Shown: one piece after another, positions 19,401 to 30,841 of the stretch
Position numbering within the stretch: the stretch's first letter is position 1
Layout: each line of letters opens with the position of its first letter
Sequence record: NC_010324.1
Reading direction: 5' to 3' (one strand)
DNA length: 64,000 bases
Source of the DNA: Escherichia phage phiEco32
Program-made: the position numbers and the translations under genes
The notes under the pieces: model-generated
Databases searched by the model: none
The model's input: the letters and a program-made list of their open reading frames with translations, nothing else
What the model was told of the DNA's origin: nothing

Positions 19401-19431
19401 GATAGAGTTTGCTGTTGGCGGGCGGAGATAA
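16414..19431 (+). CDS. large tail protein with multiple Big_2 Ig-like domains
   Basis: 1005 aa; repeated WSSSN..V..VT..G..TA...G.VTITA..G motifs typical of Big_2 domains; SD AAGGAGG. Confidence 0.65.
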   Translation: MALYPIKSLGAVGVIADQAPTDLAPNAFTNAINARFVEQRVFKTGGNAPLSYVDEDKDLTPLSFISMPFDYYSAGNSFLVVGTDKKLYKLTDESLTDISRKVATVTKKASASIKIYPVVSQIVPKESTISMNFNQTKNLEVSLLPADANNTDLVWEVSNSSYGSITVDPSDSKLATLTSFEKEGNLVVTISTANESVVAQIAVNIIDGDSGIFLSQDTVTIRKGGTTTLTAVTGKTPVTWSSSNASIVSVTPNANSLTAVITANGEGNVTITADNGTKTASCEIVSIPQIDSISLSQSDVTVSRGSQYILTATLSPANAPNQNITWTSSNPNIATVSGTSTQGTINALLAGFTEITATTEEGNRIAVCTVRVDLAGRTMRTSAMAFAAPVSESVETQEEEVVTPPESEETVYFAEPTSGIDTSGMYEGNNFYDYSNVNDIEGFARASLLATPLSSVTLDIVSASLDVGEEIVITATASPEGEYSYQWSVDKTGYVSTTSVTGKSIKLVALRKGEINVTCTVSQMTQKDYDAFDDYPWYHAVISNCAVATTHYETPQVKEFESEYFVDLPGWGEQTVVDNDGNPSVKKFNWKCERVRSFNNRLFALNMREANASGVTTNYPLRLRWSNFANENKAPTLWDDFAYDRVVSSDLASNIVGQTQALENGYAGYIDLADSNGSLIDILPLKDYLFVYTEFETYIGSPTNNTYQPLMFKKLFNDSGILAPECVVEVEGSHFVVTQNDVILHNGATKKSIASNRVKNMLINEVCLVNPLATRVHLHQDKKEVWVLYVGPGEPKESFACTKAAVWNYEFDTWSFRTIPYAQCIGLVDPPVLERGPIWSDFQEITWDDPSIKELVWRKDATNFRQRVTIVGSFLKGFYQVDVGALDYFYDRLNDVVIEKPLEMRLERTGIDFDNVTNEWNQKHINRFRPQTTGSGTYIFEAGGSQFSNEYGHPHTSKTYTIGVDRHVSVRLNHPYLFYNVIDNDVNSNAAINGLTIEFAVGGRR

Positions 19432-19435
19432 CAAC

Positions 19436-19462
19436 AAGGGGCTTCGTGCCCCTTTTATTGTT
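19436..19462 (+). terminator. hairpin ggggc-ttcgt-gcccc followed by ttttattgtttt
   Basis: GC stem plus U-run right after the stop at 19431. Confidence 0.55.
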
Positions 19463-19474
19463 TTGGAGGAACTT

Positions 19475-20443
19475 ATGGGTGCAGGTGGTTTTCGTAAGAA
19501 CACTGGTCGCAACAACACCACACTCCCGTACAACGTTGGGTTTCTCAATAATGTACAGGACACAGAAACATATAACGTAGCCGTGTATGATGAATTACAA
19601 AAAGTTAGCACAGCTACTAACCAAATGTTCCAAGCTATAGATGAAATTCACGAAGAGATTGATGTTCGTATTAAAGCTCTTAATGCAATGAATCTACAAT
19701 TTGATGAGCTTGAGAATAGAATTACTACAGAGATAGAAACAGCTATTGCAGATATCCAAACCCAGATGGGGAACCTGTCCACTGAGGACATTTGGGATAA
19801 CTCTGTTCAACCTCCTGTGAAGCTGGAAAGCACTGTATCTGGTTTTAAGACTAGCATCGAAGGTAACACAACTAAGATTCAGACAGTAGAAGGTATTGTT
19901 AACGATCAAGGTCAAGAGATTGCTCTTGTTCAGACAGAACTGCAAAATATCAACGGAAGCCTTTCTCAGTATATGAAACTCTCTGAGTATGAAGCTACGT
20001 GGGGTGTTAACTCTACAGTCAACGGAAGATATGCTGGGGTCAAGTTAACTAACAACGGAACAAACAGTCAATTTCAAGTAACAGCTAACAAATTTATTGT
20101 TGGTGATGGCAGCTCTGGGAATACTCCATTCGTATTTGAGGGTGGGCGAGCTAGGATGGAATTCGCTGATATAAAGAACGTCAATATCACAACAGCTCAG
20201 ATTGCTAACGCTAGAATCCAATGGGCACAGATTGATAACGTATCTATCTCCAATGCTCAGATTCAGAACTTATCAGCGGATAAGATTACTGCTGGTTCTA
20301 TGTGGGGTTCTAACTGGAGACTTACTGTTGGTGGTGATTTTGTTATGGGAGGCACAGGTGGGGCACAATTGTGGATGAATGGTAACAGAATAGACTTCTA
20401 CGATGGAAGTGGTGCTCTAAGAATCAGGATAGGGAGTTGGTAA
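19475..20443 (+). CDS. tail fiber / structural protein (coiled-coil N-terminus)
   Basis: Track ORF starts at 19409 but that start lies inside the terminator; ATG at 19475 has SD GGAGGAA. Confidence 0.5.
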   Translation: MGAGGFRKNTGRNNTTLPYNVGFLNNVQDTETYNVAVYDELQKVSTATNQMFQAIDEIHEEIDVRIKALNAMNLQFDELENRITTEIETAIADIQTQMGNLSTEDIWDNSVQPPVKLESTVSGFKTSIEGNTTKIQTVEGIVNDQGQEIALVQTELQNINGSLSQYMKLSEYEATWGVNSTVNGRYAGVKLTNNGTNSQFQVTANKFIVGDGSSGNTPFVFEGGRARMEFADIKNVNITTAQIANARIQWAQIDNVSISNAQIQNLSADKITAGSMWGSNWRLTVGGDFVMGGTGGAQLWMNGNRIDFYDGSGALRIRIGSW

Positions 20444-20444
20444 T

Positions 20445-21476
20445 ATGGCATATGGAATATGGACACAACCAGTAGGGCCGGGGCCAGCAACCCCCGCTCC
20501 TTTATTTATTGATAGTGGGAGTACTTTCCCTCAGTTCAAGAATAGTATAAGAGGGAGTTTTAACTTTAATGGAGCTGGGAGATCTTTCCCTATCAGTGGA
20601 TGGGATGGCAGTGGTCAGATAGTTATTGTTCCTACTGGTTCTTTATGCTGGCAATGGGAAGTCCCTCCTAACTTAGTTCCTGATGTTTATTGTGTGAATA
20701 ATATCTACGTAGAAAACAACTCCTCTTTTAGGGTTACTTTGAATCAGAACCCCGGTAGTAATCCACTATTCGACTGTGGGTTCAACGTATACCAAATATG
20801 GCCTAGAGCAGATAGGAATTATGGAATTACCTTTTCCAATACAGCAGACTACTTCTCAATATCTGATAGTGGGGTCGTCGGTCAGTGTATTTGGGCTTGG
20901 CAGGGAACTATAGGTAATTCTCTTCAAATACCAAATATTGGTGGTTTTAATATGGCTAATGCTGTTGTGTTTGCTAACTGGTCTGACGGAGGGATTGGCT
21001 TATCTTACACATCTGATGACAGAATTATTCGCGTCTATCAGAACAGGCCTTATGTCAACGGAAATACTAATGAAGGAGGGTCTGTCTTTGCTAGGGTTGC
21101 CGTATTCTGTAACGGAGCCGGTGTTCCTGAGCATAATGGAGGTTTGAACATTTACTCTCCGGGTACCACACAATGTGTCTTCTCTACTAACAGAACACCT
21201 TTCACTGTGGATACTTTTATAGGCTCAGGAGGTGGTAACACGGGAATGTCATACCCTATGATACCTCTTACCTCTGGAATAGGTGCAATAAAAGGCCAAG
21301 GTAGTGGATGGAGATATCAGCAAATGAGATCTCACACCATGAGTGGTTCTACTATAGGAACTGGCTATGGGAGGTATTTGTTTCAGTGGGATCAAAATTA
21401 TGACCTAGGAGCTGATACTGTAGTTAATTTATCAGTTCCTGTAATAAATGCAGCTAAGGTTTTTGCTGGACTATAA
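20445..21476 (+). CDS. virion structural protein
   Basis: ORF track; SD GGGAG; Gly/Asn/Ser-rich. Confidence 0.5.
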   Translation: MAYGIWTQPVGPGPATPAPLFIDSGSTFPQFKNSIRGSFNFNGAGRSFPISGWDGSGQIVIVPTGSLCWQWEVPPNLVPDVYCVNNIYVENNSSFRVTLNQNPGSNPLFDCGFNVYQIWPRADRNYGITFSNTADYFSISDSGVVGQCIWAWQGTIGNSLQIPNIGGFNMANAVVFANWSDGGIGLSYTSDDRIIRVYQNRPYVNGNTNEGGSVFARVAVFCNGAGVPEHNGGLNIYSPGTTQCVFSTNRTPFTVDTFIGSGGGNTGMSYPMIPLTSGIGAIKGQGSGWRYQQMRSHTMSGSTIGTGYGRYLFQWDQNYDLGADTVVNLSVPVINAAKVFAGL

Positions 21477-21488
21477 CAAGGAGATATT

Positions 21489-22271
21489 ATGGCAATTAAG
21501 ATGGGTATTGAAGAATTAGACCCAATGGTTCAACAGGCTTCAAAGAAGTACGGGATTCCTGCTGCTTTGATTCATGCTGTAATCCAAAGAGAGTCTAGTG
21601 GTCGTCCTACAGTGGCCTCTGGGACTGGTCCTGTAGGTTTAATGCAGATCAGTAAAGGGTTGGCTAAAGACTATGGTTACAAACTAGAAGACAGGCTTGA
21701 CCCAGCAAAGAATATCGATATGGGTGCTCGTTATATTCGAGATAACTTAAAAGCTTTTAATGGTGATGTTAAGAAAGCAATGGTTGGTTACTCGGAAGGT
21801 ATAGGCGGTGCTAAGCAGATGTTCGCTGGTAAAAGAGGGTTTACTCCTCAAGCCCTTGACTCAATGAATAACAAACACTTTCTCCCTTTCTATGGTGATG
21901 CAGCTTCTCAGATTGCTAATCCAATTGGGGCTTTACAAGCTGTTCAACCAGTCAACCAGTTTAATCCAGACAATTTAGACAGAGAGAAGGCTGCACAAGC
22001 TCCAACTCAGGCAGAGATTGCTGCTTCTAAGACTGGTGCTTTAGGTGGCAATCCAGTAGAGTTTTACTCTGATGAAGCGCAAGAAGGTGAAGACCAGAAG
22101 CCTCAACAGAACTTCGGTAATGCAGTATTAGGGGTAGCTGCTATGCTTGCTGGTAAACCTCCTACTTCTCAAACAGTTCAGAGGGCAAGTGCACCACATG
22201 CAGCAGGTTCTCAGTACAGTCCACAAACACAAGCAGTGCTCAGACGTTTAGCTAGCATTGGTGTAAAGTAA
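21489..22271 (+). CDS. internal virion protein with lytic transglycosylase (SLT) domain
   Basis: Motif QRESSGRPTVASGTGPVGLMQI (catalytic Glu plus GLMQ); SD AAGGAGA. Confidence 0.75.
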   Translation: MAIKMGIEELDPMVQQASKKYGIPAALIHAVIQRESSGRPTVASGTGPVGLMQISKGLAKDYGYKLEDRLDPAKNIDMGARYIRDNLKAFNGDVKKAMVGYSEGIGGAKQMFAGKRGFTPQALDSMNNKHFLPFYGDAASQIANPIGALQAVQPVNQFNPDNLDREKAAQAPTQAEIAASKTGALGGNPVEFYSDEAQEGEDQKPQQNFGNAVLGVAAMLAGKPPTSQTVQRASAPHAAGSQYSPQTQAVLRRLASIGVK

Positions 22272-22290
22272 TAATCTTTAAGGAGGACTT

Positions 22291-23343
22291 ATGTCTTTAT
22301 TTGGAAAATCAGCTTCTAGCAAAACCACAGTGGCTCCTTCCTCTCAGGTTGATGCCCTGCTGAAGCAGATTGTTGCTAATGCTCAGAATATGCAGAACAA
22401 CGATCCGGGATTCATCTCCCAACAGCTGGCTGGGTTTAATGGCAACCAACAGGGTGCTCTGAATAACTTAGCAGCTTCTACGACTCAGAAGAAGTTAGCT
22501 GATATGTACACACCTCGTACACAGCAAGGGTTGGACCAACTAAACTCTCTTGCCCAGCAGTATCAGAATATTGTCAATGGTGGCGGTCTAACTGCTGATG
22601 GTGTTAATAACTTCAGTAAAGGATTGAATAACTCAGCTCTTGCTCAAGCGACTAGTAAGGCAGCTTCCAATGTATCTCTCGGAAATGGTTCTGATTCAGG
22701 TTCTCTCCGTAGAGCTGCTGCTCAAGGTGCTGCTCTGAACAGTGCTAATACAAACTTAGCTCGTACTATCAGTGGCAAGAATATGGGAATCAGTGCTCTT
22801 CAACAAGACCAAAACTTCCAGAGGGGCTTACTTGGTGCTCAGTCAGGATTGGCTGGACAGAATCTCAATCTTGGTGCTCAAGGTGTTCAGGCAACTCAAC
22901 AAGCTATCCAGAATCAACTCATGGCTGGTAACCTACAACAGCAACAAGCCCAAGCTCAAGCTGATATTAATTGGCAGAACGCTATTGGCTCTCAACAGTA
23001 TGGGTGGAATCAGCTTAACAACCAACTTAATGTATTAAATAGTGTAAGCCCAATGGCTGGGTACACGATTAAGAATGCTGCTCCGGGGGTTAATACTGGA
23101 CAACAGCTCCTAGGTGCTGGTATCACTGGATTAGGTATTGCAGGTCGTATGGGTGCTTTCTCTCCTAATCAACAGACTCAGAATGCTTGGAGTTCCTATA
23201 ACAACTCAGGTGGGCAATCTGGAATGGCTGGTCCTATGATTGGTGGTTCTAATCTTTCTCAACAGAAAGGTCAGTCTAACTGGTTATCCACAGCAGGTAG
23301 TAATATCTTAGGTGGTGTCTTAGGGGCATTTGGAGCAAACTAA
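22291..23343 (+). CDS. Q/N/G-rich low-complexity virion protein
   Basis: ORF track; SD AAGGAGG; Gly-rich hydrophobic C-terminus. Confidence 0.5.
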   Translation: MSLFGKSASSKTTVAPSSQVDALLKQIVANAQNMQNNDPGFISQQLAGFNGNQQGALNNLAASTTQKKLADMYTPRTQQGLDQLNSLAQQYQNIVNGGGLTADGVNNFSKGLNNSALAQATSKAASNVSLGNGSDSGSLRRAAAQGAALNSANTNLARTISGKNMGISALQQDQNFQRGLLGAQSGLAGQNLNLGAQGVQATQQAIQNQLMAGNLQQQQAQAQADINWQNAIGSQQYGWNQLNNQLNVLNSVSPMAGYTIKNAAPGVNTGQQLLGAGITGLGIAGRMGAFSPNQQTQNAWSSYNNSGGQSGMAGPMIGGSNLSQQKGQSNWLSTAGSNILGGVLGAFGAN

Positions 23344-23355
23344 AGGAGATTTGAT

Positions 23356-24324
23356 ATGGGACTTTTCGGAGGCGGGGGTAGTAAAACTACTTCCCAAATG
23401 ATTCGCCCTGAATACATTCAACAGTATATTGACCAGCTTAACCAGCAGATCGGTAATACTAGTTCAGGGGATTATGTTTATCGAGATAATGTAGGGTTTA
23501 ATAATAATCAGACAGAGGCACTTAACAACCTAGCACAATCTGGCGCTTTGGGCACTCTCTCACAGCAATACATGGATGCAGCAGGTCAAGGCTTGGGTTA
23601 TCTAGATAATGCCTATAAAGGCTATCAGAGCCTCTCTGGACAAGGTGGGATTACTGGAGAACAGATTGGTGCTCTCGCTGGTCAACTGTATGATGATGAC
23701 GCTGTGCAAGCAGCCATTACAGCTAATAATGAACAGGTTCAACAGAACTTGGCACGTAACGCTCTTCCTCAGTTAGCTCAACAGTTTGCTGGTCAACAAG
23801 GTTCAGGTGCTCGTATGGCTAAATCTTTTGCCCAAGGTGATGCTCTGAATCAGATGCAAGGCCAAGCAACAGATATTACCAATAGTGCCTATAACTCGGC
23901 TATTAGCCAAGCTGAAAGCATCCTCTCTGGTAATCGACAGAATCAGGCAGCTGCTCTCTCTGGTCTTTCTAATATTGGTTCTAACCTTTCTAACCTAGGT
24001 CAGCAGGGTGCTAATTTGTCTCAACAGCAAATAATGAATCAATGGAATGCAGGGTTGCAGCAACAACAGCAACAACAGAATGAATATGATAATGCCTACC
24101 AGAATGCTCAGAACGCAGCTAATTGGGGATGGCAAGATATCAACAACCAACTCGGTGCAGCAGGTGTACTTAACGGTGCTCTCGGACAAACTACAACTAC
24201 AAAACAATCTGGTGGTAGTGGTGGCTTCTTAGGTGGAGCTATGAGTGGTGCAGCAGCAGGCTCTGCATTTGGGCCTTGGGGTGCATTAGCTGGGGGTGTA
24301 ATCGGTGGGTTGGCTAGTACTTAA
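23356..24324 (+). CDS. Q/N/G-rich low-complexity virion protein (paralog-like of the preceding gene)
   Basis: ORF track; SD AAGGAGA; similar composition and Gly-rich C-terminus. Confidence 0.5.
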   Translation: MGLFGGGGSKTTSQMIRPEYIQQYIDQLNQQIGNTSSGDYVYRDNVGFNNNQTEALNNLAQSGALGTLSQQYMDAAGQGLGYLDNAYKGYQSLSGQGGITGEQIGALAGQLYDDDAVQAAITANNEQVQQNLARNALPQLAQQFAGQQGSGARMAKSFAQGDALNQMQGQATDITNSAYNSAISQAESILSGNRQNQAAALSGLSNIGSNLSNLGQQGANLSQQQIMNQWNAGLQQQQQQQNEYDNAYQNAQNAANWGWQDINNQLGAAGVLNGALGQTTTTKQSGGSGGFLGGAMSGAAAGSAFGPWGALAGGVIGGLAST

Positions 24325-24337
24325 TTAGGAGATAAAT

Positions 24338-25993
24338 ATGCAACAGACAACTTACGCTCAGGTCAGAAGTCGTGACCCGAGAAATACTTTCTATGGTGTT
24401 AATCCGGGAGCGGCTTCGGCCTCTCCTTATATGGCTAGACCAACTCAGACAGCAGATATTTCTATGTACCAACGTCCTGCCGTACCTTCATCTCTTGCGG
24501 GTCTTGTCTCTCAGGCAGAAGAAGATCAGAATGCTATGGTTAATCCGGGATTTCAGCAGCGTCTTATGGAACAACAGAATCAAGGAACTCCTACCAGTCT
24601 TCAGGGTATTGATATTGGAGCACCGGCTCCTGTAGCGGCTAACCCCAATCTCTCCACTGATCAGGGTTTACAGGATGCTGGGCTTATGCCTAGTGACCCT
24701 CTTCCGGTAACACCTCCTCCTAAACCACTAGAAGCTGGTCCTATGGAGTTTACTCCTTCTCAGGTGGAACAGGCACAAGGTGTGATTAACACTCTTGCTC
24801 AAGGACAAGACACCGGTGATGGGATGACTGCTGCTACTCGTGCTAAAGATCAGGAACGTGTTAACAATGATATCTTGCAAGTTGCGAAAGCTAAAGATCC
24901 TTCAGAAGCTTGGAACAAACTACAGAAAGAACCATTCTATCAGAACTCTAGTTTCTACACAGGGTTGATGGGTGTAGGTCTTTCCATTATGTCAGGTAAG
25001 TCTCCTATCGAAGCTTTCCAGATTGGTCAGGGAATGGCTAATCAAGATGAGACTAAGAAGCAACTGGAAGCTAACCGTGATGCTCTGATTGAACAAGGTT
25101 TCTCTCAAGACTCAATCGCAGCTGCTATTGCTAACGGAGACCCATCTCTTCTGAAGATGAAAGCTGTAGACCCTGCTCAGAAAGAAGCTCTGTATGCTGC
25201 TCGTGAAGAACGTCAGAATGCTGAATGGGATAGACGTCAACAGATTCAAGAGCAGGCTATGCGTGAACGTGCCGAGGAAACTCGTCGTGCTGCTGAAAAA
25301 AGAACTGATATGAACTTTGAACGTCAGAAAGAGTTGATTGGCTATCGTGATAAAGTTAAGGCTGAACGTGCTGAACAGGTTGCTCAAAGTTTCAACTTCC
25401 CCACGAAAGAAATTCGTAACGCTCAGAATACAGCTGAAGGTACTATCGCTAAGCAGTGGGCAGAGAAAGGTGGCCTGTTTAATCAGTCTAATAAAGACTT
25501 GGACTTGGCTGATAAAGCTGTTAAGGACAAAGACTATCAGACGGCCCGTTCTGCTTACATGCAGGCTATCATGAACTCCGCAAGGGCTGAAATTGGTTCT
25601 ACTCGTTCTCTCACTGAAGAAGATTTGGGGCATTTTGCAGAAGACCCATCAATCTTTATCCGTGTAGGTAACAAGTTTGCTCTGAAGTCTGGATGGCGTC
25701 CTACTGATGCTGCTCTTGCTTATGCTCGTAAACAGGCTAACGTCGGTCACACCTCTGCTATGAAAGGTGTTGCTGATGCTAAGAGAGATACTATCAACGC
25801 TTATATTGGTTCTGGTATGGATAAGAAGAGAGCTACTGCATTGGTTAACCGTGCAATCCCTTCTGGTGGTTTCTATGACCCTCTTGGTGCTTTCTCTGAA
25901 GAAGCAGAGGAGGCAGTTGGTGGTGCAGCAACTAATCCTAAACTGAACGGTGCTTTATCGGCTGTCGAAGACACTAGCTGGTTCACGCAATAA
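24338..25993 (+). CDS. internal virion protein, hypothetical
   Basis: ORF track; SD AGGAGA. Confidence 0.5.
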   Translation: MQQTTYAQVRSRDPRNTFYGVNPGAASASPYMARPTQTADISMYQRPAVPSSLAGLVSQAEEDQNAMVNPGFQQRLMEQQNQGTPTSLQGIDIGAPAPVAANPNLSTDQGLQDAGLMPSDPLPVTPPPKPLEAGPMEFTPSQVEQAQGVINTLAQGQDTGDGMTAATRAKDQERVNNDILQVAKAKDPSEAWNKLQKEPFYQNSSFYTGLMGVGLSIMSGKSPIEAFQIGQGMANQDETKKQLEANRDALIEQGFSQDSIAAAIANGDPSLLKMKAVDPAQKEALYAAREERQNAEWDRRQQIQEQAMRERAEETRRAAEKRTDMNFERQKELIGYRDKVKAERAEQVAQSFNFPTKEIRNAQNTAEGTIAKQWAEKGGLFNQSNKDLDLADKAVKDKDYQTARSAYMQAIMNSARAEIGSTRSLTEEDLGHFAEDPSIFIRVGNKFALKSGWRPTDAALAYARKQANVGHTSAMKGVADAKRDTINAYIGSGMDKKRATALVNRAIPSGGFYDPLGAFSEEAEEAVGGAATNPKLNGALSAVEDTSWFTQ

Positions 25994-26013: not shown

Positions 26014-26022
26014 TAATGTATA
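26014..26022 (+). promoter_or_regulatory. TAATGTATA motif (candidate phage-sigma-dependent promoter element)
   Basis: Exact 9-mer 38 nt upstream of the ATG at 26061. Confidence 0.45.
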
Positions 26023-26060
26023 TAGGGGGTAGGACATTTTTATTTATAAAAGGAGACGTT

Positions 26061-29000
26061 ATGGCTAACATTAAACCGTGGGAAGAAGCTTCCAAAGCTC
26101 CTGCGTATCTGAATGCCTCTCCGGAGCAACAAGCTCAAATGAGAGAACAATATAAGGCAGCAGGTGGCTCTATTCCTGAGGAACAACCAGTAGCACAACC
26201 ACAACAAGAAGAACGTGGTGCTATAGGCGAGTTTGCTCAAGGTGTGTCAAATGCTCTTCAATCTGGTGGTGCAAATATTGCAGCTAGTGCTGCTAAAGGT
26301 ATTGGTGGTTTAGTTGAGATCGGTGAGAATCTAGCTGGAGCACAGACTAGTTATGGTAAGCGTATCCAAGAGAACTCTCAGAACCTTCTGAAAGAACGTA
26401 TGGATAAGATTGAGGATGGGATTGGCAAAACTGTTGGTCAGTATGCTGGCGTTGCTGGTGATATTGGTATGACTGTTGCTAACCCATTGGCTGCTGCTGC
26501 TATCATCGCAGGTCGTGAGACAGGTCGTGCATATGCAGACCAAACCCCTGAAGAGGGAGAAGATAAGTCTATTCTAGATGCAGCCTTAGTTGGTGGTGCT
26601 AACTATGCGGCCCAGAGAATCCTTCCGGGTGCTGTCGGTACAGCTGAGTCCACACTTGGACGTATTGGTCAGAACGTTGCCAGTAACGCAGTGGCTGGTG
26701 CTAAAGGTGGTGCTCTTGTTGGTGCTGCTGAAGTTCAGAACAAGTATGGGGATGACAATGATCTAGCTAAGACATTGGAAGGTGTTATCGAAGAGGGGGC
26801 TATGGGTGCTGCATTTGGTGGCGCAGTTGGTGGGGTTCATGGTTTGATTAGCCGTCCGGATTCTGTTGTTTTCAAGAATACTCCAGAGTATGCGAAGACT
26901 GATATTGCTGCTGATGACGAACTGATTCGTAGTGCTAAGAATGTTGATGAACTGAAAGAGGCTTACTCTAAAGCTGAAACTGCTAACGCTGCTTCTGCTC
27001 TGAACCTTCTCGATGAGAATGGGTTCCGTATTACAGATGCTGTTGCTGTAGATTCTCCTGCTGCTCAGCGTATTCTTAACACTGACCAAGCTCGTGCTGA
27101 GAAAGCTGCTTCTGTTCAGAAAGAACACTCCAACATTCCGGGCCTTAATCCTTTAGCTTCTCCTGCTAAGACTCGTGGTAAAGCTTTCGCTGATAATGAG
27201 CACAACCAGAAACAGGCTGTTGCTATGAAGGATGCGATGGCTGACTATACCAAGGATAACACTAAAGCTCTTACAGATGTTTTAGATAACCTAGATCGTG
27301 AATTAACCTCTCTCCGAGCTTCTGGTGATTTTACTGGTAGTCCGATTGATATTAAGAATCGCACACAAGCTGACCGTGACTTCATTGATGCTTACAAGAC
27401 TTTCTACAATGAAGCAAATCGATTCAAAGCTCGTGAAGGTGAAGACTTCAATAACTTTGTAGAGAAAGCTGCTGAACTACAGAAGATGGCTGATAATGTT
27501 TCTCCAGAGATGAAGAAAGCTATTGGTGGTCTGAAGAAACTGAAGGGTATGCCTGAAGGTTTTAATCCTATTCAAGATGCTTACACTCTGAACAATACAG
27601 CTAAGTTCATGAGCAACCAAGATCGTGGTTGGACTTCCCTGACTGATGATGGGTTCCGTGAGGCCTCTTCTCCTAGTCTGGTAATGAACACTCTCGGTGC
27701 TGCTAAATATGCTCTGAATCGCTTCTCTTCTCAGCGTGCCCGTTCTCAACGTGTTAAGCAACAAGAGTCTAATAGTGAAGCTATCCGCTCTCTGGCTCGT
27801 GGTGATTTGGAAGTTGCTCGTGCTAAATCTACTGCTGATGAAGCTCGTGCTAAAATGGAAGAAGAACCAGTTGTTGATGACATTAAATTTAAGACGCAAA
27901 ATGACGTGGAAACCGAACCGGTTCGGGAGCCTTCTTCTAGTACTGTGACGGAAGAAAATCTTCCTTCTTCTGCTCCTCAAGAATCTCCTCTTACAGCTCG
28001 TGATTTAGTTGCGCAAAGACGTGCTATCCGTCAGGCTGAACAGCGTCGCGCTGAAGAAGAGGCAGCTGCTGCTCAAGAAGCTCCGGTTGAACAGGCTCCT
28101 CAGGCTGAACCTCTCCCTGCTCGTAATCCTCTAGAGGAACGTCGTGCAATGGAACAGCAACGTGCTCAAGAAGAGGCTACACAGGCTCCAGAACCAACCG
28201 TAGAGGAACCAACAGTCAAAGCTGAGCCATTACCTGCTCGTGCTCCTAAAGCTCCTAAGGAAGCTGTACAGGACGTTAAACCGGCAAGTGGTGTAGAACG
28301 TTTAGCTGCTATGTCTAGTGCTGCTCGTCAGGCTACCAAAGATCGTGCAGAACGTTTTGCTCGTTCTCTGTACTCTAAGGCTGCTAAAGCTAAAGCCACT
28401 GCTGAAAACTTCTTGGCTTATAAAGGTGATCCTAAGGAATTGATGCGTCGTATTCGTCAGGAAGATAATGCTATCAACACTGAACGTCATGAAGAAATGG
28501 CTCGTAACCAGCTGGCTTCTCAGCAAGGTATTGCTACTGCTAAGAACAACACTGTACGAACTAATTTTGCTGAATGGGTTAAGGAACGTGGTCTGCCAGA
28601 AGACATTGCTACTAAGGCATTACGTGCTGAAGAGAAAGGTTTAGGTGGGAACGTAACTAACTTGGATAGTCTGAAACGTCGTGCTGAAAGGTTGTATCAG
28701 AAGCAGCGTGAGGATGAGTTTGATAGATTATATCAACAAGCTCTAGAAGAGAACAAAGCTTTCGATAAGAAAGATGCTCCTAAACTGGTTGACCAGAAGA
28801 AAGAGCTTCAGTCTGAGATTGATGCTTTGATTGATTCAGAACCTTTACGTCCTGCTCAGAAAGATGCTATGCGTAAGCTGATGAATGACTTTGTAGATGG
28901 GAAGTTTAAATCTTCAGAGAAGGCTGGTAGGGAAGAGGCTTTGGAAGTTGGTCAGATGAAGGATATTTGGGATGGGTTTATTAACACCTACAACAGAGAA

Positions 29001-30482
29001 GTGAATGCCTTCAACAAAGCTAACAAGAACTCTCAGTACGAAGCTGCTGCTAAGCACTTACAGGCTCGTGAAGAACGTCTTGCTACCCTCAGGAAAAAGG
29101 CTCAGGCTCGTTCAGATGCTAAGGCTGCTGTTGAGAATGAACGTAAAACTCTAGAGGCTATTGCAGCTCAGAAGAGTGAGATTGAGAAGATGATGGAAGG
29201 TTTACCTAAACCTGTCCGTGAGGCTCAGGAATCTCGTACATTGAAACAGTTAGCTGCTCACCATGACAAGAACTCTCCAGTTCCTCCAGAGAAGTTCCGT
29301 AGTTATATCGAACGTATCCATAACGCCGAGTCAGATTACCTTGATCGTCAGCGTCGTTTAACTGATGCAGAGGAAGATGCTCGTCAGGCCAAGTGGAACA
29401 AGATGTATGAGCAAGCGGAAGAGATGAACCGTAAGTTTGATGTGGACAAGAGAGTTAAGCGCAGTGAAGAGCTTAAAGCGGCCCAAGAGCGTGAGAATGA
29501 CCTTATGGCAGTACAACGTCAACGTGATGACATTCATCGCCGCCTGATGCGTACTATGGAAGATAAGGGCATATCTAGAGAGGATGCTGAAGCATTTGCT
29601 GGTTCCTATATGGATAACCGTTATGCACTTCTTGAGAAGCCTATGACTCCTACTGAACATCAGAATGCTCGTTCTCGTATCGAAGCTGATGTTGAGAAGT
29701 TTGCTAAGAAATACGAATCAATGACTCCTATCGAGAAAGAGATTGTTAAGGTTACTGGAGATACTGAAGGTAAGCTTGATAACTTGGATGCGGATACTAG
29801 GAAGGCTATTGAGGAGGCTCAGAAGGTTGACTCTGATATCAAGAAACTGCAAGAGGAAGAGTTGGAGATGGAGAAGATTCGTTCTGCTCTGCCTGATGAT
29901 GAAAAATCTCAAGCAAATTCTGATATCTTGGAAAGCATTAAACAACAGGAAGAAGTCTTTGCTGATAAAGTAGAGAAAGCTTTCTTGAGTGGGAAAAGCT
30001 TGGATGAGTTGGCTAGTGTGGCTGAAGTTTTAGACAGGGTTCATGGTGCAGATAAGGCTGGTAACAACCGTCGCTTTGTACGTGCATTGCAGACTGCTGC
30101 TGAAAACAAGAAGAAGTATGGTGATAATCCAGTAGCTTGGTTTAGTGCTGATGATTACTCTGCCATTGCTAAACTTGGTGCTTCTTCCGCAGGTGGTAAC
30201 AAATCCAGAGCACTGGAGAAGATCTTTGGTTCTACAGCTGAACAGGCTAAGAGTAAGTTGCTTGGTAGGGATGATGTAGCGAAGATGAGACGTGTGATTG
30301 AAGAGAACCCTGATATCAAGATTCCTTCTTACAAGACAACAAATCGTACTGAGTACTTGCAGTTCTTGGAGAAGTTTAATGACGAAGGGAAGCCTAAGAT
30401 TAAACGTGGCTCATTGTCAGAGAAGCTTGAACGCAGTAAGCGTCAATCGAGACTCCGTGTAAGAGTTCGACCTAAGGAGTGA
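26061..30482 (+). CDS. large internal virion / ejection protein (1474 aa), coiled-coil rich
   Basis: Track ORF starts at 26016 inside the promoter motif; ATG at 26061 has SD AAGGAGA; Ala/Glu/Arg/Lys-rich with long helical segments. Confidence 0.6.
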   Translation: MANIKPWEEASKAPAYLNASPEQQAQMREQYKAAGGSIPEEQPVAQPQQEERGAIGEFAQGVSNALQSGGANIAASAAKGIGGLVEIGENLAGAQTSYGKRIQENSQNLLKERMDKIEDGIGKTVGQYAGVAGDIGMTVANPLAAAAIIAGRETGRAYADQTPEEGEDKSILDAALVGGANYAAQRILPGAVGTAESTLGRIGQNVASNAVAGAKGGALVGAAEVQNKYGDDNDLAKTLEGVIEEGAMGAAFGGAVGGVHGLISRPDSVVFKNTPEYAKTDIAADDELIRSAKNVDELKEAYSKAETANAASALNLLDENGFRITDAVAVDSPAAQRILNTDQARAEKAASVQKEHSNIPGLNPLASPAKTRGKAFADNEHNQKQAVAMKDAMADYTKDNTKALTDVLDNLDRELTSLRASGDFTGSPIDIKNRTQADRDFIDAYKTFYNEANRFKAREGEDFNNFVEKAAELQKMADNVSPEMKKAIGGLKKLKGMPEGFNPIQDAYTLNNTAKFMSNQDRGWTSLTDDGFREASSPSLVMNTLGAAKYALNRFSSQRARSQRVKQQESNSEAIRSLARGDLEVARAKSTADEARAKMEEEPVVDDIKFKTQNDVETEPVREPSSSTVTEENLPSSAPQESPLTARDLVAQRRAIRQAEQRRAEEEAAAAQEAPVEQAPQAEPLPARNPLEERRAMEQQRAQEEATQAPEPTVEEPTVKAEPLPARAPKAPKEAVQDVKPASGVERLAAMSSAARQATKDRAERFARSLYSKAAKAKATAENFLAYKGDPKELMRRIRQEDNAINTERHEEMARNQLASQQGIATAKNNTVRTNFAEWVKERGLPEDIATKALRAEEKGLGGNVTNLDSLKRRAERLYQKQREDEFDRLYQQALEENKAFDKKDAPKLVDQKKELQSEIDALIDSEPLRPAQKDAMRKLMNDFVDGKFKSSEKAGREEALEVGQMKDIWDGFINTYNREVNAFNKANKNSQYEAAAKHLQAREERLATLRKKAQARSDAKAAVENERKTLEAIAAQKSEIEKMMEGLPKPVREAQESRTLKQLAAHHDKNSPVPPEKFRSYIERIHNAESDYLDRQRRLTDAEEDARQAKWNKMYEQAEEMNRKFDVDKRVKRSEELKAAQERENDLMAVQRQRDDIHRRLMRTMEDKGISREDAEAFAGSYMDNRYALLEKPMTPTEHQNARSRIEADVEKFAKKYESMTPIEKEIVKVTGDTEGKLDNLDADTRKAIEEAQKVDSDIKKLQEEELEMEKIRSALPDDEKSQANSDILESIKQQEEVFADKVEKAFLSGKSLDELASVAEVLDRVHGADKAGNNRRFVRALQTAAENKKKYGDNPVAWFSADDYSAIAKLGASSAGGNKSRALEKIFGSTAEQAKSKLLGRDDVAKMRRVIEENPDIKIPSYKTTNRTEYLQFLEKFNDEGKPKIKRGSLSEKLERSKRQSRLRVRVRPKE

Positions 30483-30490
30483 TAAAAGAA

Positions 30491-30525
30491 AAGCCCCAAC
30501 CGAAAGGAAGGGGCTTTATTTGTTT
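30491..30525. terminator. bidirectional rho-independent terminator at the convergence of the plus and minus modules
   Basis: Stem gcccc/ggggc flanked by an A-run on one side and a T-run on the other, so it is followed by U-runs on both strands. Confidence 0.6.
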
Positions 30526-30841
30526 CTAAGTTTTAAAAACCATCAAATTCGTCATACATCCCAATTCTCTTCAGAAGTCTGGATGTTCATCTTCAAAGCA
30601 TCCTGAGATGCCTCCATAGAACCAATCCGATTTACTTCCAAGGATAACAACTTCTTCATTCATATACCCTCCTAGATTGTGTTTATAAAATTAGTAAGTT
30701 TCTCTTCACTTTCATCAAAATCTTTTCCAGCTGCTTCCATCTCCCAAGTATCGGCATTGTCAATAAAGCTCTGAGCTTCTAATAGATCGTGGATTAAGTC
30801 GAAGAGTTTATTTTTATCTGCTTGTGTGATCATGTCAGTTC

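What the first reader, a model, noticed from the sequence alone, without database searches (positions are those of the whole stretch)
22291..24324. Two consecutive Q/N/G-rich low-complexity proteins in the virion module
Seen in sequence: 22291..23343 and 23356..24324 are Gln/Asn/Gly/Ala-rich throughout and both end in Gly-rich hydrophobic segments (ILGGVLGAFGAN; GGVIGGLAST). Inference: flexible internal or ejection proteins, possibly membrane-inserting.
Basis: inference. Interest (0 to 1): 0.3.

Follow-up and report, generated by a model that had tools for sequence, protein, structure and literature searches.

The report
Paired phage DNA-ejection proteins (SU10 gp21/gp22)
These two neighbouring genes encode a pair of related, glutamine/asparagine/glycine-rich helical proteins that are already known, from the nearly identical phage SU10, to be stored in the phage head and shot out with the DNA at infection, so the finding is real but essentially already explained.

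Summary
ORFs 22291-23343 (350 aa) and 23356-24324 (322 aa) are 53-55% Q/N/G/A against 25% for other window ORFs, and only 7-8% charged. Both end in Gly-rich hydrophobic tails.

The window is a Kuravirus. The proteins are 97% and 99% identical to SU10 gp21 and gp22. [quoted passage not shown] "Ejection proteins" is therefore already shown experimentally for the orthologues.

What this analysis adds:
- The two are ancient paralogues, kept as a pair in distant relatives, with opposite net charge.
- They are not simply floppy. gp22 is predicted as long helices plus an unstructured tail with serial GxxxG motifs (a glycine zipper).
- They are remote homologues of LUZ24 gp53. Its presumed Pa223 orthologue, gp56, has been proposed as the outer-membrane channel. 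The gp22 tail also resembles that of P22 gp7.
- In distant phages the same module is fused to an S74 self-cleaving domain and to cell-wall hydrolases.

Membrane insertion remains an inference. Simple hydropathy gives no classical transmembrane helix. Novelty is low.

The parts
22291..23343 (+). gp21-like ejection protein (350 aa), paralogue A. Net charge +8. Predicted helical over ~18-252, with a Q/N/G/S-rich C-terminal third.
   Evidence: ORF. 97 % identical to SU10 gp21. phrog_4287 E 1.8e-117. AF2 secondary structure at low confidence.
23356..24324 (+). gp22-like ejection protein (322 aa), paralogue B. Net charge -9. Long predicted helices at 114-144, 150-199 and 211-275.
   Evidence: ORF. 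99 % identical to SU10 gp22. phrog_4287 E 1.2e-108. Paralogy with gp21: 31 % identity, E 2e-12. AF2 pLDDT 66, core 80-90.
24211..24321 (+). Glycine-zipper tail of gp22 (residues 286-322). GxxxG runs in register through G286-290-294-298-302-306, then through G309-313-317. Contains the motif GPWGA.
   Evidence: Most conserved block of the gp22 family. Weak PF05433 match, E 0.0078, below the cut-off. KD19 maximum 1.07.
23104..23163 (+). Conserved Gly-rich hydrophobic segment of gp21 (residues 272-291, QLLGAGITGLGIAGRMGAFS). Aligns with the start of the gp22 tail.
   Evidence: Alignment A1, nearly invariant Q272 L274 G275 G277 L281 G282 G285 G288 F290. KD19 1.16.
23281..23340 (+). Second, terminal Gly-rich hydrophobic segment of gp21 (residues 331-350, ...ILGGVLGAFGAN). 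Conserved only among closer relatives, and separated from the first segment by a variable Q/N/G/S insert.
21489..22271 (+). gp20, a virion-borne lytic transglycosylase. First gene of the five-gene ejection cassette.
   Evidence: PF01464 SLT E 1.5e-23. Ejection protein with transglycosylase activity, as stated for SU10 gp20 (PMC9509320).
24338..25993 (+). gp23 (551 aa), a medium-sized ejection protein. Residues 214-232 (nt 24977-25033) carry the motif GLSIMSGKSPIEAFQIGQG, which is shared with large fusion relatives of gp21/22.
   Evidence: phrog_12130. SU10 gp23 in the virion and lost on genome release. Motif statistics.
26016..30482 (+). gp24 (about 1473-1488 aa), the large ejection protein and last gene of the cassette. 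Has Gly/Ala-rich hydrophobic segments at residues 146-164 and 261-279.
   Evidence: phrog_14629 match starts at residue 16. SU10 gp24. Hydropathy.
22280..22286 (+). Shine-Dalgarno site AAGGAGG, ending 4 nt before the gp21 start codon.
   Evidence: Sequence read directly.
23343..23348 (+). Shine-Dalgarno site AAGGAG, ending 7 nt before the gp22 start codon and overlapping the last base of the gp21 stop codon.
   Evidence: Sequence read directly.

Best explanation
The two genes encode the Kuravirus ejection proteins gp21 and gp22.

Shown by published experiment on orthologues: they are packaged inside the head with the DNA, and they leave the particle when the genome is released.

Inferred here: they are an old paralogous pair. 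Each has a ~270-residue helical region that is very poor in charge and rich in Q/N/A. This is followed by a Thr-rich linker and a Gly-rich hydrophobic tail, which in gp22 is a serial GxxxG glycine zipper.

Proposed mechanism: the low-charge, chaperone-independent helical hairpins pass unfolded through the portal and nozzle channel. They refold outside as an oligomer, probably a gp21:gp22 hetero-oligomer given their opposite net charges. Their glycine-zipper tails pack into a membrane-embedded ring. This would be the small, membrane-inserting first component of the trans-envelope DNA conduit, most likely in the outer membrane. It would be the functional counterpart of P22 gp7, T7 gp14, DEV gp73 and Pa223 gp56. 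gp20 cuts peptidoglycan, and gp23 and gp24 extend the conduit across the periplasm and inner membrane.
For: Identity and experiment:
- 96 % nucleotide identity to SU10; 97 % and 99 % protein identity to gp21 and gp22.
- Both were found in virions by MS (PMC4281155).

Family:
- Both match phrog_4287 'DNA ejection protein'.
- They are paralogues, E 2e-12.
- The pair and the five-gene order (SLT, A, B, ~500 aa, ~1100-1500 aa) are kept in relatives only 38-44 % identical.

Structure: AF2 gives gp22 long helices at pLDDT 80-90 with a low-confidence tail.

Tail:
- It is the most conserved block of the gp22 family.
- It gives a sub-threshold match to the glycine zipper 2TM domain.
- The P22 gp7 tail fits the gp22 tail profile better than any of 2000 shuffles. 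P22 gp7 also shares the composition, 49 % QNGA and 10 % DEKR.

Link to a proposed outer-membrane channel:
- LUZ24 gp53 is 313 aa, and the genus is at least 94 % conserved. It is therefore presumed to be the orthologue of Pa223 gp56, but the Pa223 sequence itself was not retrieved.
- LUZ24 gp53 is linked to the family through intermediates, with margins of 18-35 bits over local shuffles.
- Pa223 gp56 is proposed as the outer-membrane channel (bioRxiv 10.1101/2025.06.11.659172).

Functional linkage: distant relatives fuse this module to Peptidase_S74 and to SLT, lysozyme, M15 or Hydrolase_2 domains. They also carry a gp23-like motif.

Charge: gp21-like proteins average +4.3. All 25 gp22-like proteins examined are negative, averaging -7.1.
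Against: - No experiment shows membrane insertion, pore formation or oligomerisation for gp21, gp22 or any family member.
- The tails are not classical transmembrane helices. KD 19-residue maxima are 1.07-1.16, against the usual threshold of ~1.6. The summed Hessa scale is +5.4 to +6.7 kcal/mol.
- The PF05433 match is below the gathering threshold, 16.5 against 24.2 bits.
- There is no detectable similarity to T7 gp14. There is no full-length similarity to P22 gp7.
- The direct profile match to LUZ24 gp53 barely exceeds local shuffles with one profile and does not exceed them with another.
- The Pa223 gp56 outer-membrane assignment is itself only bioinformatic.
- gp21's tail has a GxxG/GxG spacing rather than a canonical GxxxG zipper.
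- The SU10 cryo-EM shows no density for these proteins.
Confidence: 0.55

Rival explanations
1. gp21 and gp22 are ejection proteins, but they build the soluble periplasmic tube that prolongs the nozzle (a T7 gp15 / P22 gp20-like role) rather than a membrane pore. On this view the Gly-rich tails mediate subunit packing, not lipid insertion.
For: - Predicted helices are 50-65 residues long, roughly 7-10 nm if straight.
- The SU10 authors propose that ejection proteins extend the nozzle across the periplasm.
- The tails fail hydropathy criteria for transmembrane helices.
Against: - In the described systems the tunnel protein is the medium-sized second gene (~430-980 aa), and the small first gene is the membrane protein (PMC8954989 Table 1). 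Here gp23 (551 aa) occupies the tunnel position.
- The tail resembles that of P22 gp7, the gp14-like outer-membrane class, and not P22 gp20.
Confidence: 0.22
2. The Gly-rich tails insert into the inner membrane. This would resemble the hydrophobic segments of tape-measure proteins or the C-terminal part of T7 gp16, so gp21/22 would open the cytoplasmic membrane rather than the outer one.
For: - Glycine-zipper segments occur in inner-membrane channels and small toxins (general knowledge of glycine zippers, not tested here).
- The tail gives weak matches to class II bacteriocin and C19orf12 profiles, E 0.07-0.09.
- The SU10 tail needle is proposed to be forced through the outer membrane, which could make an outer-membrane pore less necessary.
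Against: - gp24, the large last protein, has its own Gly/Ala-rich hydrophobic segments. It occupies the position of the inner-membrane component.
- By gene order the small first protein is the outer-membrane component in T7, P22 and DEV.
Confidence: 0.13
3. They are internal head cargo without a role in the conduit. Possible roles are space-filling or DNA-organising core proteins, or injected effectors acting in the cytoplasm.
For: - Their position inside the head is not resolved by cryo-EM.
- No enzymatic domain was found.
Against: - Very low charge (7-8 % DEKR), and gp22 is net negative, which argues against DNA binding.
- The module is repeatedly fused to peptidoglycan hydrolases, and it sits at the head of ejection cassettes in unrelated podophages.
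- The conserved hydrophobic tail is unexplained by this view.
Confidence: 0.06
4. They are intrinsically disordered low-complexity polypeptides with no defined fold, as the first reader's phrase 'flexible' suggested.
For: - The composition is biased.
- AF2 with a shallow alignment gave pLDDT 40 for gp21.
- There is no PDB fold match.
Against: - With 81 sequences gp22 reaches pLDDT 80-90 over about 100 residues of helix.
- Family alignments have invariant W, Y, N, G and R positions and few indels in the first 270 residues.
- Homologues are detectable down to E 1e-30 or better in 1.8 billion proteins.
Confidence: 0.04

Closest known systems
Escherichia phage SU10 gp21 and gp22 (Kuravirus; also annotated 'DNA injection/ejection protein' in phiEco32-like phages; PHROG 4287)
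   Same: Orthologues: 97 % and 99 % amino-acid identity, with the same gene order (tail needle, gp19, SLT gp20, gp21, gp22, gp23, gp24). Shown to be virion components that are lost on genome release.
   Different: Nothing substantive: 10 and 3 substitutions respectively. The published work does not dissect individual roles, note the paralogy, or describe the tails.
Pseudomonas phage Pa223 gp56, taken to be LUZ24 gp53 (Bruynoghevirus), the proposed outer-membrane channel of the DNA ejectosome
   Same: - Similar size: 313 aa against 322-350 aa.
- First gene of a small, medium, large ejection cassette.
- A GGS-K-TT motif near the N-terminus.
- A central 'G(S)SRAGVAEG'-type helix region.
- A Thr-rich linker followed by a Gly-rich hydrophobic tail. 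Transmembrane segments were predicted at 278-291 and 296-311 in Pa223.
- Remote homology through intermediates P0127 and P0230, robust to local-shuffle controls.
   Different: - Single copy instead of a paralogous pair.
- A ~25-residue N-terminal extension.
- Direct profile scores are dominated by composition.
- The downstream proteins (LUZ24 gp51, gp50) show no detectable similarity to gp23 or gp24.
- The function in Pa223 is itself a prediction.
- The Pa223 sequence was not retrieved. The equivalence with LUZ24 gp53 rests on equal length, gene order and genus-wide conservation.
Salmonella phage P22 gp7 (the smallest E-protein; gp14-like outer-membrane class)
   Same: - Same unusual composition: 49 % Q/N/G/A and 10 % charged.
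- First gene of the ejection cassette.
- The C-terminal tail ...SSTPWGAAIGGGIGLLGSLF resembles gp22 ...SAFGPWGALAGGVIGGLAST. It scores 26.1 bits against the gp22 tail profile, and none of 2000 shuffles reaches this.
   Different: - Shorter, at 229 aa.
- No full-length sequence similarity was detectable.
- The margin of the tail score over the best shuffle is only 0.4 bit, so common ancestry is not established.
- P22 gp7 has a leader cleaved by a host protease (record annotation). None is evident here.
T7 gp14 and DEV/N4 gp73 (gp52), outer-membrane pore ejection proteins
   Same: Small first protein of a three-part ejectosome, helical, packaged in the head and expelled. The DEV paper reports bilayer pore activity for DEV gp73 and cites it for T7 gp14. 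This is the functional model proposed here.
   Different: - No sequence similarity to T7 gp14; DEV gp73 was not tested.
- About half the size (155-196 aa).
- T7 gp14 is less biased in composition (37 % QNGA, 20 % charged).
- T7 gp14 shows no match to the gp22 glycine-zipper tail profile.
Sinorhizobium phage phiM5 gp27 and uncultured-phage 'internal virion protein D'-type fusion proteins (N-terminal gp21/22-like module + Peptidase_S74 +/- cell-wall hydrolase)
   Same: The N-terminal ~300 residues are homologous, with profile E-values from about 5e-12 to 1e-6 across the whole library for the large relatives and phmmer E down to 1e-34 among them. phiM5 gp27 is in the particle proteome and lies directly upstream of three internal virion proteins.
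   Different: In those phages the module is followed at residues ~276-331 by an S74 intramolecular-chaperone / self-cleavage motif (SDxR/KxK). Often there are also SLT, lysozyme, M15 or Hydrolase_2 domains, and a gp23-like motif in the same polypeptide. The Kuravirus encodes these parts as separate genes and has no S74 domain.

Membership tests
PHROG 4287 'DNA ejection protein' / SU10 gp21-gp22 orthologous groups | Full-length profile match and orthologue-level identity with conserved gene order | tested here: met
   phrog_4287 E 1.8e-117 (residues 1-350) and 1.2e-108 (residues 1-310). 97 % and 99 % identity to SU10 gp21 and gp22. Same neighbours.
Podophage ejection (pilot / internal virion) proteins, operational definition | Present in the mature virion | not testable with these tools
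   Taken from the literature on the orthologues: MS coverage 53.4 % (gp21) and 49.1 % (gp22) in PMC4281155, and 'yes/yes' in the SU10 supplementary table.
Podophage ejection (pilot / internal virion) proteins, operational definition | Released from the particle on genome ejection | not testable with these tools
   Taken from the literature: gp20-24 are absent from the SU10 genome-release intermediate (PMC9509320).
Podophage ejection (pilot / internal virion) proteins, operational definition | Required for infectivity but not for particle assembly | not tested
   No genetic data were found for any Kuravirus in the papers read.
gp14-like outer-membrane pore class (T7 gp14, P22 gp7, DEV gp73) | Sequence homology to a characterised member | tested here: not met
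   T7 gp14: hhalign probability 0.09, HMM scores negative, and the tail scores no better than shuffles. P22 gp7: no full-length match. DEV gp73 was not tested.
gp14-like outer-membrane pore class (T7 gp14, P22 gp7, DEV gp73) | Small first gene of a small / medium / large ejection cassette downstream of the tail genes | tested here: met
   The order is SLT (260), 350, 322, 551, 1488 aa. The same order is seen in L005 and L009. For the paradigm. The deviation here is two small genes plus a separate SLT gene.
gp14-like outer-membrane pore class (T7 gp14, P22 gp7, DEV gp73) | Membrane partitioning or pore activity in lipid bilayers | not testable with these tools
   This needs purified protein. 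The DEV paper reports it for DEV gp73 and cites it for T7 gp14 and P22 gp7.
gp14-like outer-membrane pore class (T7 gp14, P22 gp7, DEV gp73) | C-terminal tail shared with P22 gp7 | tested here: inconclusive
   The native P22 gp7 tail scores 26.1 bits against the gp22 tail HMM. None of 2000 composition-matched shuffles reaches this, but the best shuffle scores 25.7.
Bruynoghevirus gp53/gp56 'particle protein' (proposed outer-membrane channel) | Detectable homology | tested here: met
   The link is transitive.
- LUZ24 gp53 against P0230: 52.5 bits (best local shuffle 17.3).
- LUZ24 gp53 against P0127: 30.7 bits (best local shuffle 12.4).
- P0127 against the gp22 profile: 350 bits.
- P0230 against the gp21 profile: 46.5 bits (best local shuffle 8.5).
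Direct profile tests are weak: 22.1 against 16.7 bits and 20.0 against 20.7 bits.
Glycine zipper 2TM domain (Pfam PF05433) and related Gly-zipper families | Profile score above the Pfam gathering threshold | tested here: not met
   The gp22 tail alone gives E 0.0078 and 16.5 bits against a cut-off of 24.2. PF13441 gives 12.4 bits and PF13488 gives 7.6 bits. The gp21 segments give no match. The whole proteins give no Pfam family.
Glycine zipper motif (serial GxxxG) | Three or more GxxxG in register within a hydrophobic stretch | tested here: met
   Read from the gp22 sequence: G286-290-294-298-302-306, then G309-313-317. Most of these Gly are invariant or nearly invariant in 25 homologues. gp21 has only GxxG/GxG spacing plus one terminal GxxxG.
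Classical alpha-helical transmembrane segment | 19-residue hydropathy above the usual threshold (KD about 1.6) or a favourable insertion free energy | tested here: not met
   Maxima are 1.16 and 1.03 (gp21) and 1.07 (gp22). Summed Hessa scale is +5.4 to +6.7 kcal/mol. A dedicated predictor (TMHMM, DeepTMHMM or MemBrain) was not available.
Peptidase_S74 intramolecular-chaperone proteins (tail spike / fibre type) | S74 domain with the SDxR/KxK self-cleavage motif | tested here: not met
   No Pfam hit in either window protein. S74 is present only in distant relatives, 11 of 47 large ones plus P0146 and P0134.
Intrinsically disordered / prion-like Q/N-rich proteins | No stable predicted structure across the Q/N-rich region | tested here: not met
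   In gp22 the helices at 114-144, 150-199 and 211-275 have block pLDDT of 68-90, mostly 80-90. Only residues 280-322, 75-91 and 197-215 fall below 50. The gp21 model is uninformative, with pLDDT 40 from a shallow alignment.

The most novel reading that the evidence does not exclude
SU10 gp21/gp22, Bruynoghevirus gp53/gp56, P22 gp7 and the N-terminal modules of many 800-1600-aa 'internal virion' fusion proteins may form one widespread superfamily of pilot proteins.

Shared features would be a low-charge Q/N/A-rich helical body and a free C-terminal glycine-zipper tail. That free tail would be produced in one of two ways: by a stop codon, as in Kuravirus and P22, or by S74 autoproteolysis, as in phiM5-like and uncultured phages. 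Because S74 domains chaperone trimers, the ring would assemble in multiples of three.

In Kuraviruses the duplicated, oppositely charged gp21 and gp22 would co-assemble into a hetero-oligomeric channel that opens the outer membrane for the DNA.
Probability: 0.3. Interest if true: 0.5.

Novelty: already known. Interest (0 to 1): 0.22.

Why it matters
As it stands this is a correct re-discovery of annotated and experimentally supported ejection proteins, so it adds little.

The side results have modest value for phage biologists.
- They connect the still uncharacterised small ejection proteins of Kuraviruses to those of Bruynogheviruses, and possibly P22-like phages, through a shared architecture.
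- They point to the glycine-zipper tail as the obvious element to mutate.
- They suggest that some phages release the same module by S74 self-cleavage from a hydrolase-bearing polyprotein.

If confirmed, this would give a unifying and testable picture of how short-tailed phages breach the outer membrane. Kuraviruses and Bruynogheviruses are both used in phage-therapy work, so their entry mechanism has practical interest.

Tried and rejected
- **PDB sequence searches.** Neither single proteins nor the family profile gave a meaningful hit.
- **Foldseek against the PDB.** The gp22 model matched only generic coiled coils and helical hairpins, with best E 0.1 and TM below 0.25. BFVD returned mostly uncharacterised phage proteins with TM-scores below 0.4, not used as evidence.
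- **AF2 of gp21.** A 22-sequence alignment gave pLDDT 40. It was used only for secondary structure.
- **hhalign of the family against LUZ24 gp53, phiM5 gp27 and T7 gp14.** All failed or were weak because the targets were single sequences.
- **Broad mixed-family HMM against LUZ24 gp53.** It did not beat locally shuffled controls. The homology claim therefore rests on the pairwise chain through intermediates.
- **gp23 and gp24 against LUZ24 gp51 and gp50.** No similarity.
- **phmmer of gp20, gp23 and gp24 against the large fusion relatives.** No hits. Only a 19-residue motif links gp23 to them, and an HMM of the wider region scores only 6.2 bits. That link is suggestive, not established.
- **DNA-level tandem repeats as the cause of the composition.** Rejected.
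- **Literature search for 'glycine zipper' with 'ejection proteins'.** No papers found.
- **The Privateer phage paper.** It contains nothing on these proteins.
Full report
**Observation**

Each follows a strong Shine-Dalgarno site, and the genes are separated by only 12-19 nt from their neighbours.

Their composition is extreme for this genome.
- Q+N+G+A is 52.9 % and 54.7 %, against 25.1 % in the other long ORFs. These are the two highest values among 42 ORFs.
- Charged residues are 6.9 % and 8.4 %, against 24.7 %.
- The quoted Gly-rich hydrophobic C-termini are present.
- The bias is not produced by DNA repeats.

'Low-complexity throughout' is an overstatement. Both families show position-specific invariant residues. 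BLAST's filter also appears to mask only the last ~30 % of the second protein.

**Identity**

The region is 96 % identical at the DNA level to Escherichia phage SU10 and about 90 other Kuravirus genomes. The proteins are 97 % and 99 % identical to SU10 gp21 and gp22. Both match PHROG 4287, 'DNA ejection protein', over their full length.

The surrounding genes are the SU10 late module:
- nozzle protein gp17
- tail needle gp18
- gp19 (DUF6453)
- SLT transglycosylase gp20
- gp21, gp22, gp23 (551 aa) and gp24 (about 1473-1488 aa)

After gp24 there is an annotated terminator in SU10 and a strand switch.

**What is already known**

Mirzaei et al. (PMC4281155) detected gp21 at 53.4 % coverage with 11 peptides, and gp22 at 49.1 % with 5 peptides, in purified SU10 virions. 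Šiborová et al. [quoted passage not shown] They found no resolved density for them in the head. They propose that these proteins degrade peptidoglycan (gp20) and extend the nozzle into a channel across the periplasm. A later Kuravirus survey repeats this assignment.

Its own refutation test has been passed. None of the papers read assigns individual roles to gp21 or gp22.

**New points about the proteins themselves**

1. They are paralogues: 31 % identity over 275 residues, E 2e-12 with composition-adjusted statistics.
   - They share an N-terminal M-[GS]-L-F-G...TT...P motif.
   - They share a central helical region.
   - They share a W/Y-x-N-A...W-x-x-[LI]-N-N-x-L block.
   - They share a Thr-rich linker and a Gly-rich hydrophobic end.
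2. The duplication is old and both copies are retained. Relatives only 38-44 % identical still carry the order SLT, gp21-like, gp22-like, ~500 aa, ~1100-1200 aa. These relatives have an SU10-type portal and, in L005, an SU10-type capsid protein. The contig lengths recorded for the two hit lists also suggest that the two families co-occur.
3. The two families differ consistently in net charge. gp21-like proteins average +4.3. All 25 gp22-like proteins examined are negative, averaging -7.1. This is compatible with, but does not prove, hetero-association.
4. gp22 is not predicted to be disordered. With an 81-sequence alignment AlphaFold2 gives helices at 114-144, 150-199 and 211-275, with block pLDDT mostly 80-90. 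Only residues 280-322 and two loops are unstructured. The gp21 model from a shallow alignment is uninformative except for the same helical pattern. No solved structure resembles the model.
5. The gp22 tail is the most conserved block of its family.
   - It contains serial GxxxG motifs: G286-290-294-298-302-306, then 309-313-317.
   - It gives only a sub-threshold match to the Pfam glycine zipper 2TM domain, E 0.0078 and 16.5 bits against a 24.2-bit cut-off.
   - In gp21 the homologous segment (272-291) is split from a second short hydrophobic end (331-350) by a variable Q/N/G/S insert.
   - By simple hydropathy none of these is a classical transmembrane helix. KD maxima are 1.03-1.16 and the Hessa sum is +5.4 to +6.7 kcal/mol.
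   - That is what one might expect of proteins that must stay soluble inside the capsid and insert only as oligomers. It also means membrane insertion is an inference.

**Relatives elsewhere**

A profile of the family found 377 proteins at E up to 0.001 among 1.84 billion representatives. Many are 800-1600 aa proteins whose first ~300 residues match the whole module.

In those proteins the module is followed directly by one or more of:
- A Peptidase_S74 intramolecular-chaperone / self-cleavage domain. This occurs in 11 of 47 large proteins scanned. The SDxR/KxK motif always lies at residues 276-331.
- One of several different peptidoglycan hydrolases: SLT, phage lysozyme, Peptidase_M15_4 or Hydrolase_2.

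In addition, 35 of 77 large relatives carry the motif G[LF]G[MI]M[AS]GxSPx5IGxG. About 0.025 would be expected from shuffles. The motif occurs exactly once in the six-frame translation of the window, in gp23 at residues 214-232. A wider HMM of that region is not significant, so this remains a motif-level hint.

Taken together, other phages encode in one polypeptide what the Kuravirus encodes as gp20, gp21/22 and perhaps gp23. This is a Rosetta-stone type of argument that these proteins act in one machine.

In Sinorhizobium phage phiM5 the homologue is gp27, annotated 'tailspike/chaperone of endosialidase'. It is in the particle proteome and lies immediately upstream of three internal virion proteins. 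From what is known of S74 domains (my knowledge, not tested here), self-cleavage would leave the module ending in its Gly-rich hydrophobic tail. That is how gp22 ends naturally.

**Link to proposed outer-membrane channel proteins**

LUZ24 gp53 is 313 aa and conserved at 94 % or more across the genus. I therefore take it to be the orthologue of Pa223 gp56, but I did not retrieve the Pa223 sequence. It has the same layout as gp21/22 and is the first gene of a small (313), medium (505), large (1055) cassette.

A 2025 preprint proposes Pa223 gp56 as the outer-membrane channel of the ejectosome. The proposal rests on virion MS, predicted membrane helices at 278-291 and 296-311, and an AlphaFold3 nonamer.

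The evidence for homology is as follows.
- Direct profile scores for LUZ24 gp53 are dominated by composition: 22.1 against 16.7 bits for the best of 1000 local shuffles with one profile, and no excess with another.
- Pairwise links through intermediates are robust. LUZ24 gp53 against P0230 scores 52.5 bits against 17.3. Against P0127 it scores 30.7 against 12.4.
- P0127 scores 350 bits against the gp22 profile. P0230 scores 46.5 bits against the gp21 profile.

I therefore accept remote homology.

P22 gp7 is the smallest P22 ejection protein, classed as gp14-like (outer membrane) in a review, and it is reported to partition into nanodiscs. It has the same composition, 49 % QNGA and 10 % charged. 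Its tail (...PWGAAIGGGIGLLGSLF) fits the gp22 tail profile better than any of 2000 shuffles, but only by 0.4 bit. There is no full-length similarity. T7 gp14 shows no similarity at all.

**Mechanism**

Shown for the orthologues: the proteins are packaged in the head and released with the genome.

Inferred:
- The low-charge helical hairpins pass through the portal/nozzle channel and refold outside.
- gp21 and gp22 co-assemble.
- Their Gly-rich tails form the membrane-embedded part of the conduit. This is most likely the outer-membrane component, given their gene position and their resemblance to Pa223 gp56 and P22 gp7.
- gp20 cuts the cell wall.
- gp23 (tunnel position) and gp24 (large, with its own Gly/Ala-rich hydrophobic segments) complete the path.

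I put about 0.95 on 'ejection proteins' and about 0.55 on the whole statement including membrane insertion. The main rival, at 0.22, is that they form part of the soluble periplasmic tube. Inner-membrane insertion (0.13), passive cargo (0.06) and plain disorder (0.04) follow.

**Novelty and verdict**

The finding is real and correctly interpreted. It concerns proteins already annotated and experimentally classed as ejection proteins in a 96 %-identical phage, so I rate it 'already known' with low interest (0.22).

The modest new content is:
- the paralogy and charge complementarity
- the predicted helical body with a glycine-zipper tail
- the remote link to Bruynoghevirus gp53/gp56 and the resemblance to P22 gp7
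- the fusion and S74 architectures in distant phages

The most novel reading not excluded is a single widespread superfamily of glycine-zipper-tailed pilot proteins, with a hetero-oligomeric outer-membrane channel in Kuraviruses. I give this a probability of about 0.3. It would deserve an interest of about 0.5 if true.

Noticed in passing
window 20445-21476 (+): gp19 (343 aa; Pfam DUF6453 E 1.2e-23; PHROG 1265 'membrane protein') sits between the tail-needle gene and the ejection cassette. The SU10 supplementary table lists it as not detected in virions. Its function is unknown. Its only hydrophobic peak is the extreme C-terminus (KD19 1.42).
   Followed up: partly
L005 (NCBI GCA_023211535.1, contig DAHCAP010000002.1, 204317-225285) and L006: A module with SU10-type capsid, portal and terminase genes and the same SLT / gp21-like / gp22-like / 498 aa / 1113 aa cassette lies in the middle of a 389-kb E. 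coli contig. Identity to the window proteins is 38-44 %. Similar gp22-like proteins are recorded from Enterobacter genomes (P0091, P0095). This may be a temperate or integrated distant relative of the strictly lytic Kuraviruses, or an assembly artefact. No integrase was seen in the 21 kb read.
   Followed up: partly
window 24977-25033 (gp23 residues 214-232): The motif GLSIMSGKSPIEAFQIGQG matches a motif conserved in 35 of 77 large fusion proteins that begin with a gp21/22-like module. It occurs only once in the six-frame translation of the window. Its function is unknown; it may be another membrane-active or subunit-contact segment.
   Followed up: partly
window 26016-26063 and 19409-19477: The mechanical ORF starts are probably too far upstream. 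The PHROG match to gp24 begins at residue 16 (an internal Met, giving the 1473 aa annotated in SU10). The match to the tail-needle protein begins at residue 23 of the TTG-started ORF (322 aa in SU10).
   Followed up: partly
window 22291-22350 and 23356-23415; LUZ24 gp53 residues 27-43: An N-terminal motif (M-G/S-L-F-G-G...K/T-T-T...P) is conserved across both paralogue families and in the large distant relatives. In LUZ24 gp53 it is preceded by a ~25-residue extension, reminiscent of the cleaved 20-residue leader of P22 gp7. It could be a packaging or incorporation signal. Unexplained.
   Followed up: no
window ~30482-30700: Gene orientation switches from + to - just after gp24, and the GC skew changes sign at the same place (cumulative skew peaks near 30 kb). 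SU10 has an annotated terminator at the corresponding position.
   Followed up: no
L003 (LUZ24) 13180-13614, L007 8492-8986, L010 4882-5289: In Bruynogheviruses and in an uncultured phage, a small (putative) acetyltransferase gene sits immediately upstream of the gp21/22-like gene. In the metagenomic relative L010 an unannotated 135-aa ORF occupies that position. The Kuravirus has an SLT gene there instead.
   Followed up: no
SU10 supplementary table (PMC9509320) versus window 24338-25993: The paper's table gives gp23 as 515 aa. The ORF here and the RefSeq SU10 CDS are 551 aa, so this is probably a digit transposition in the table.
   Followed up: yes
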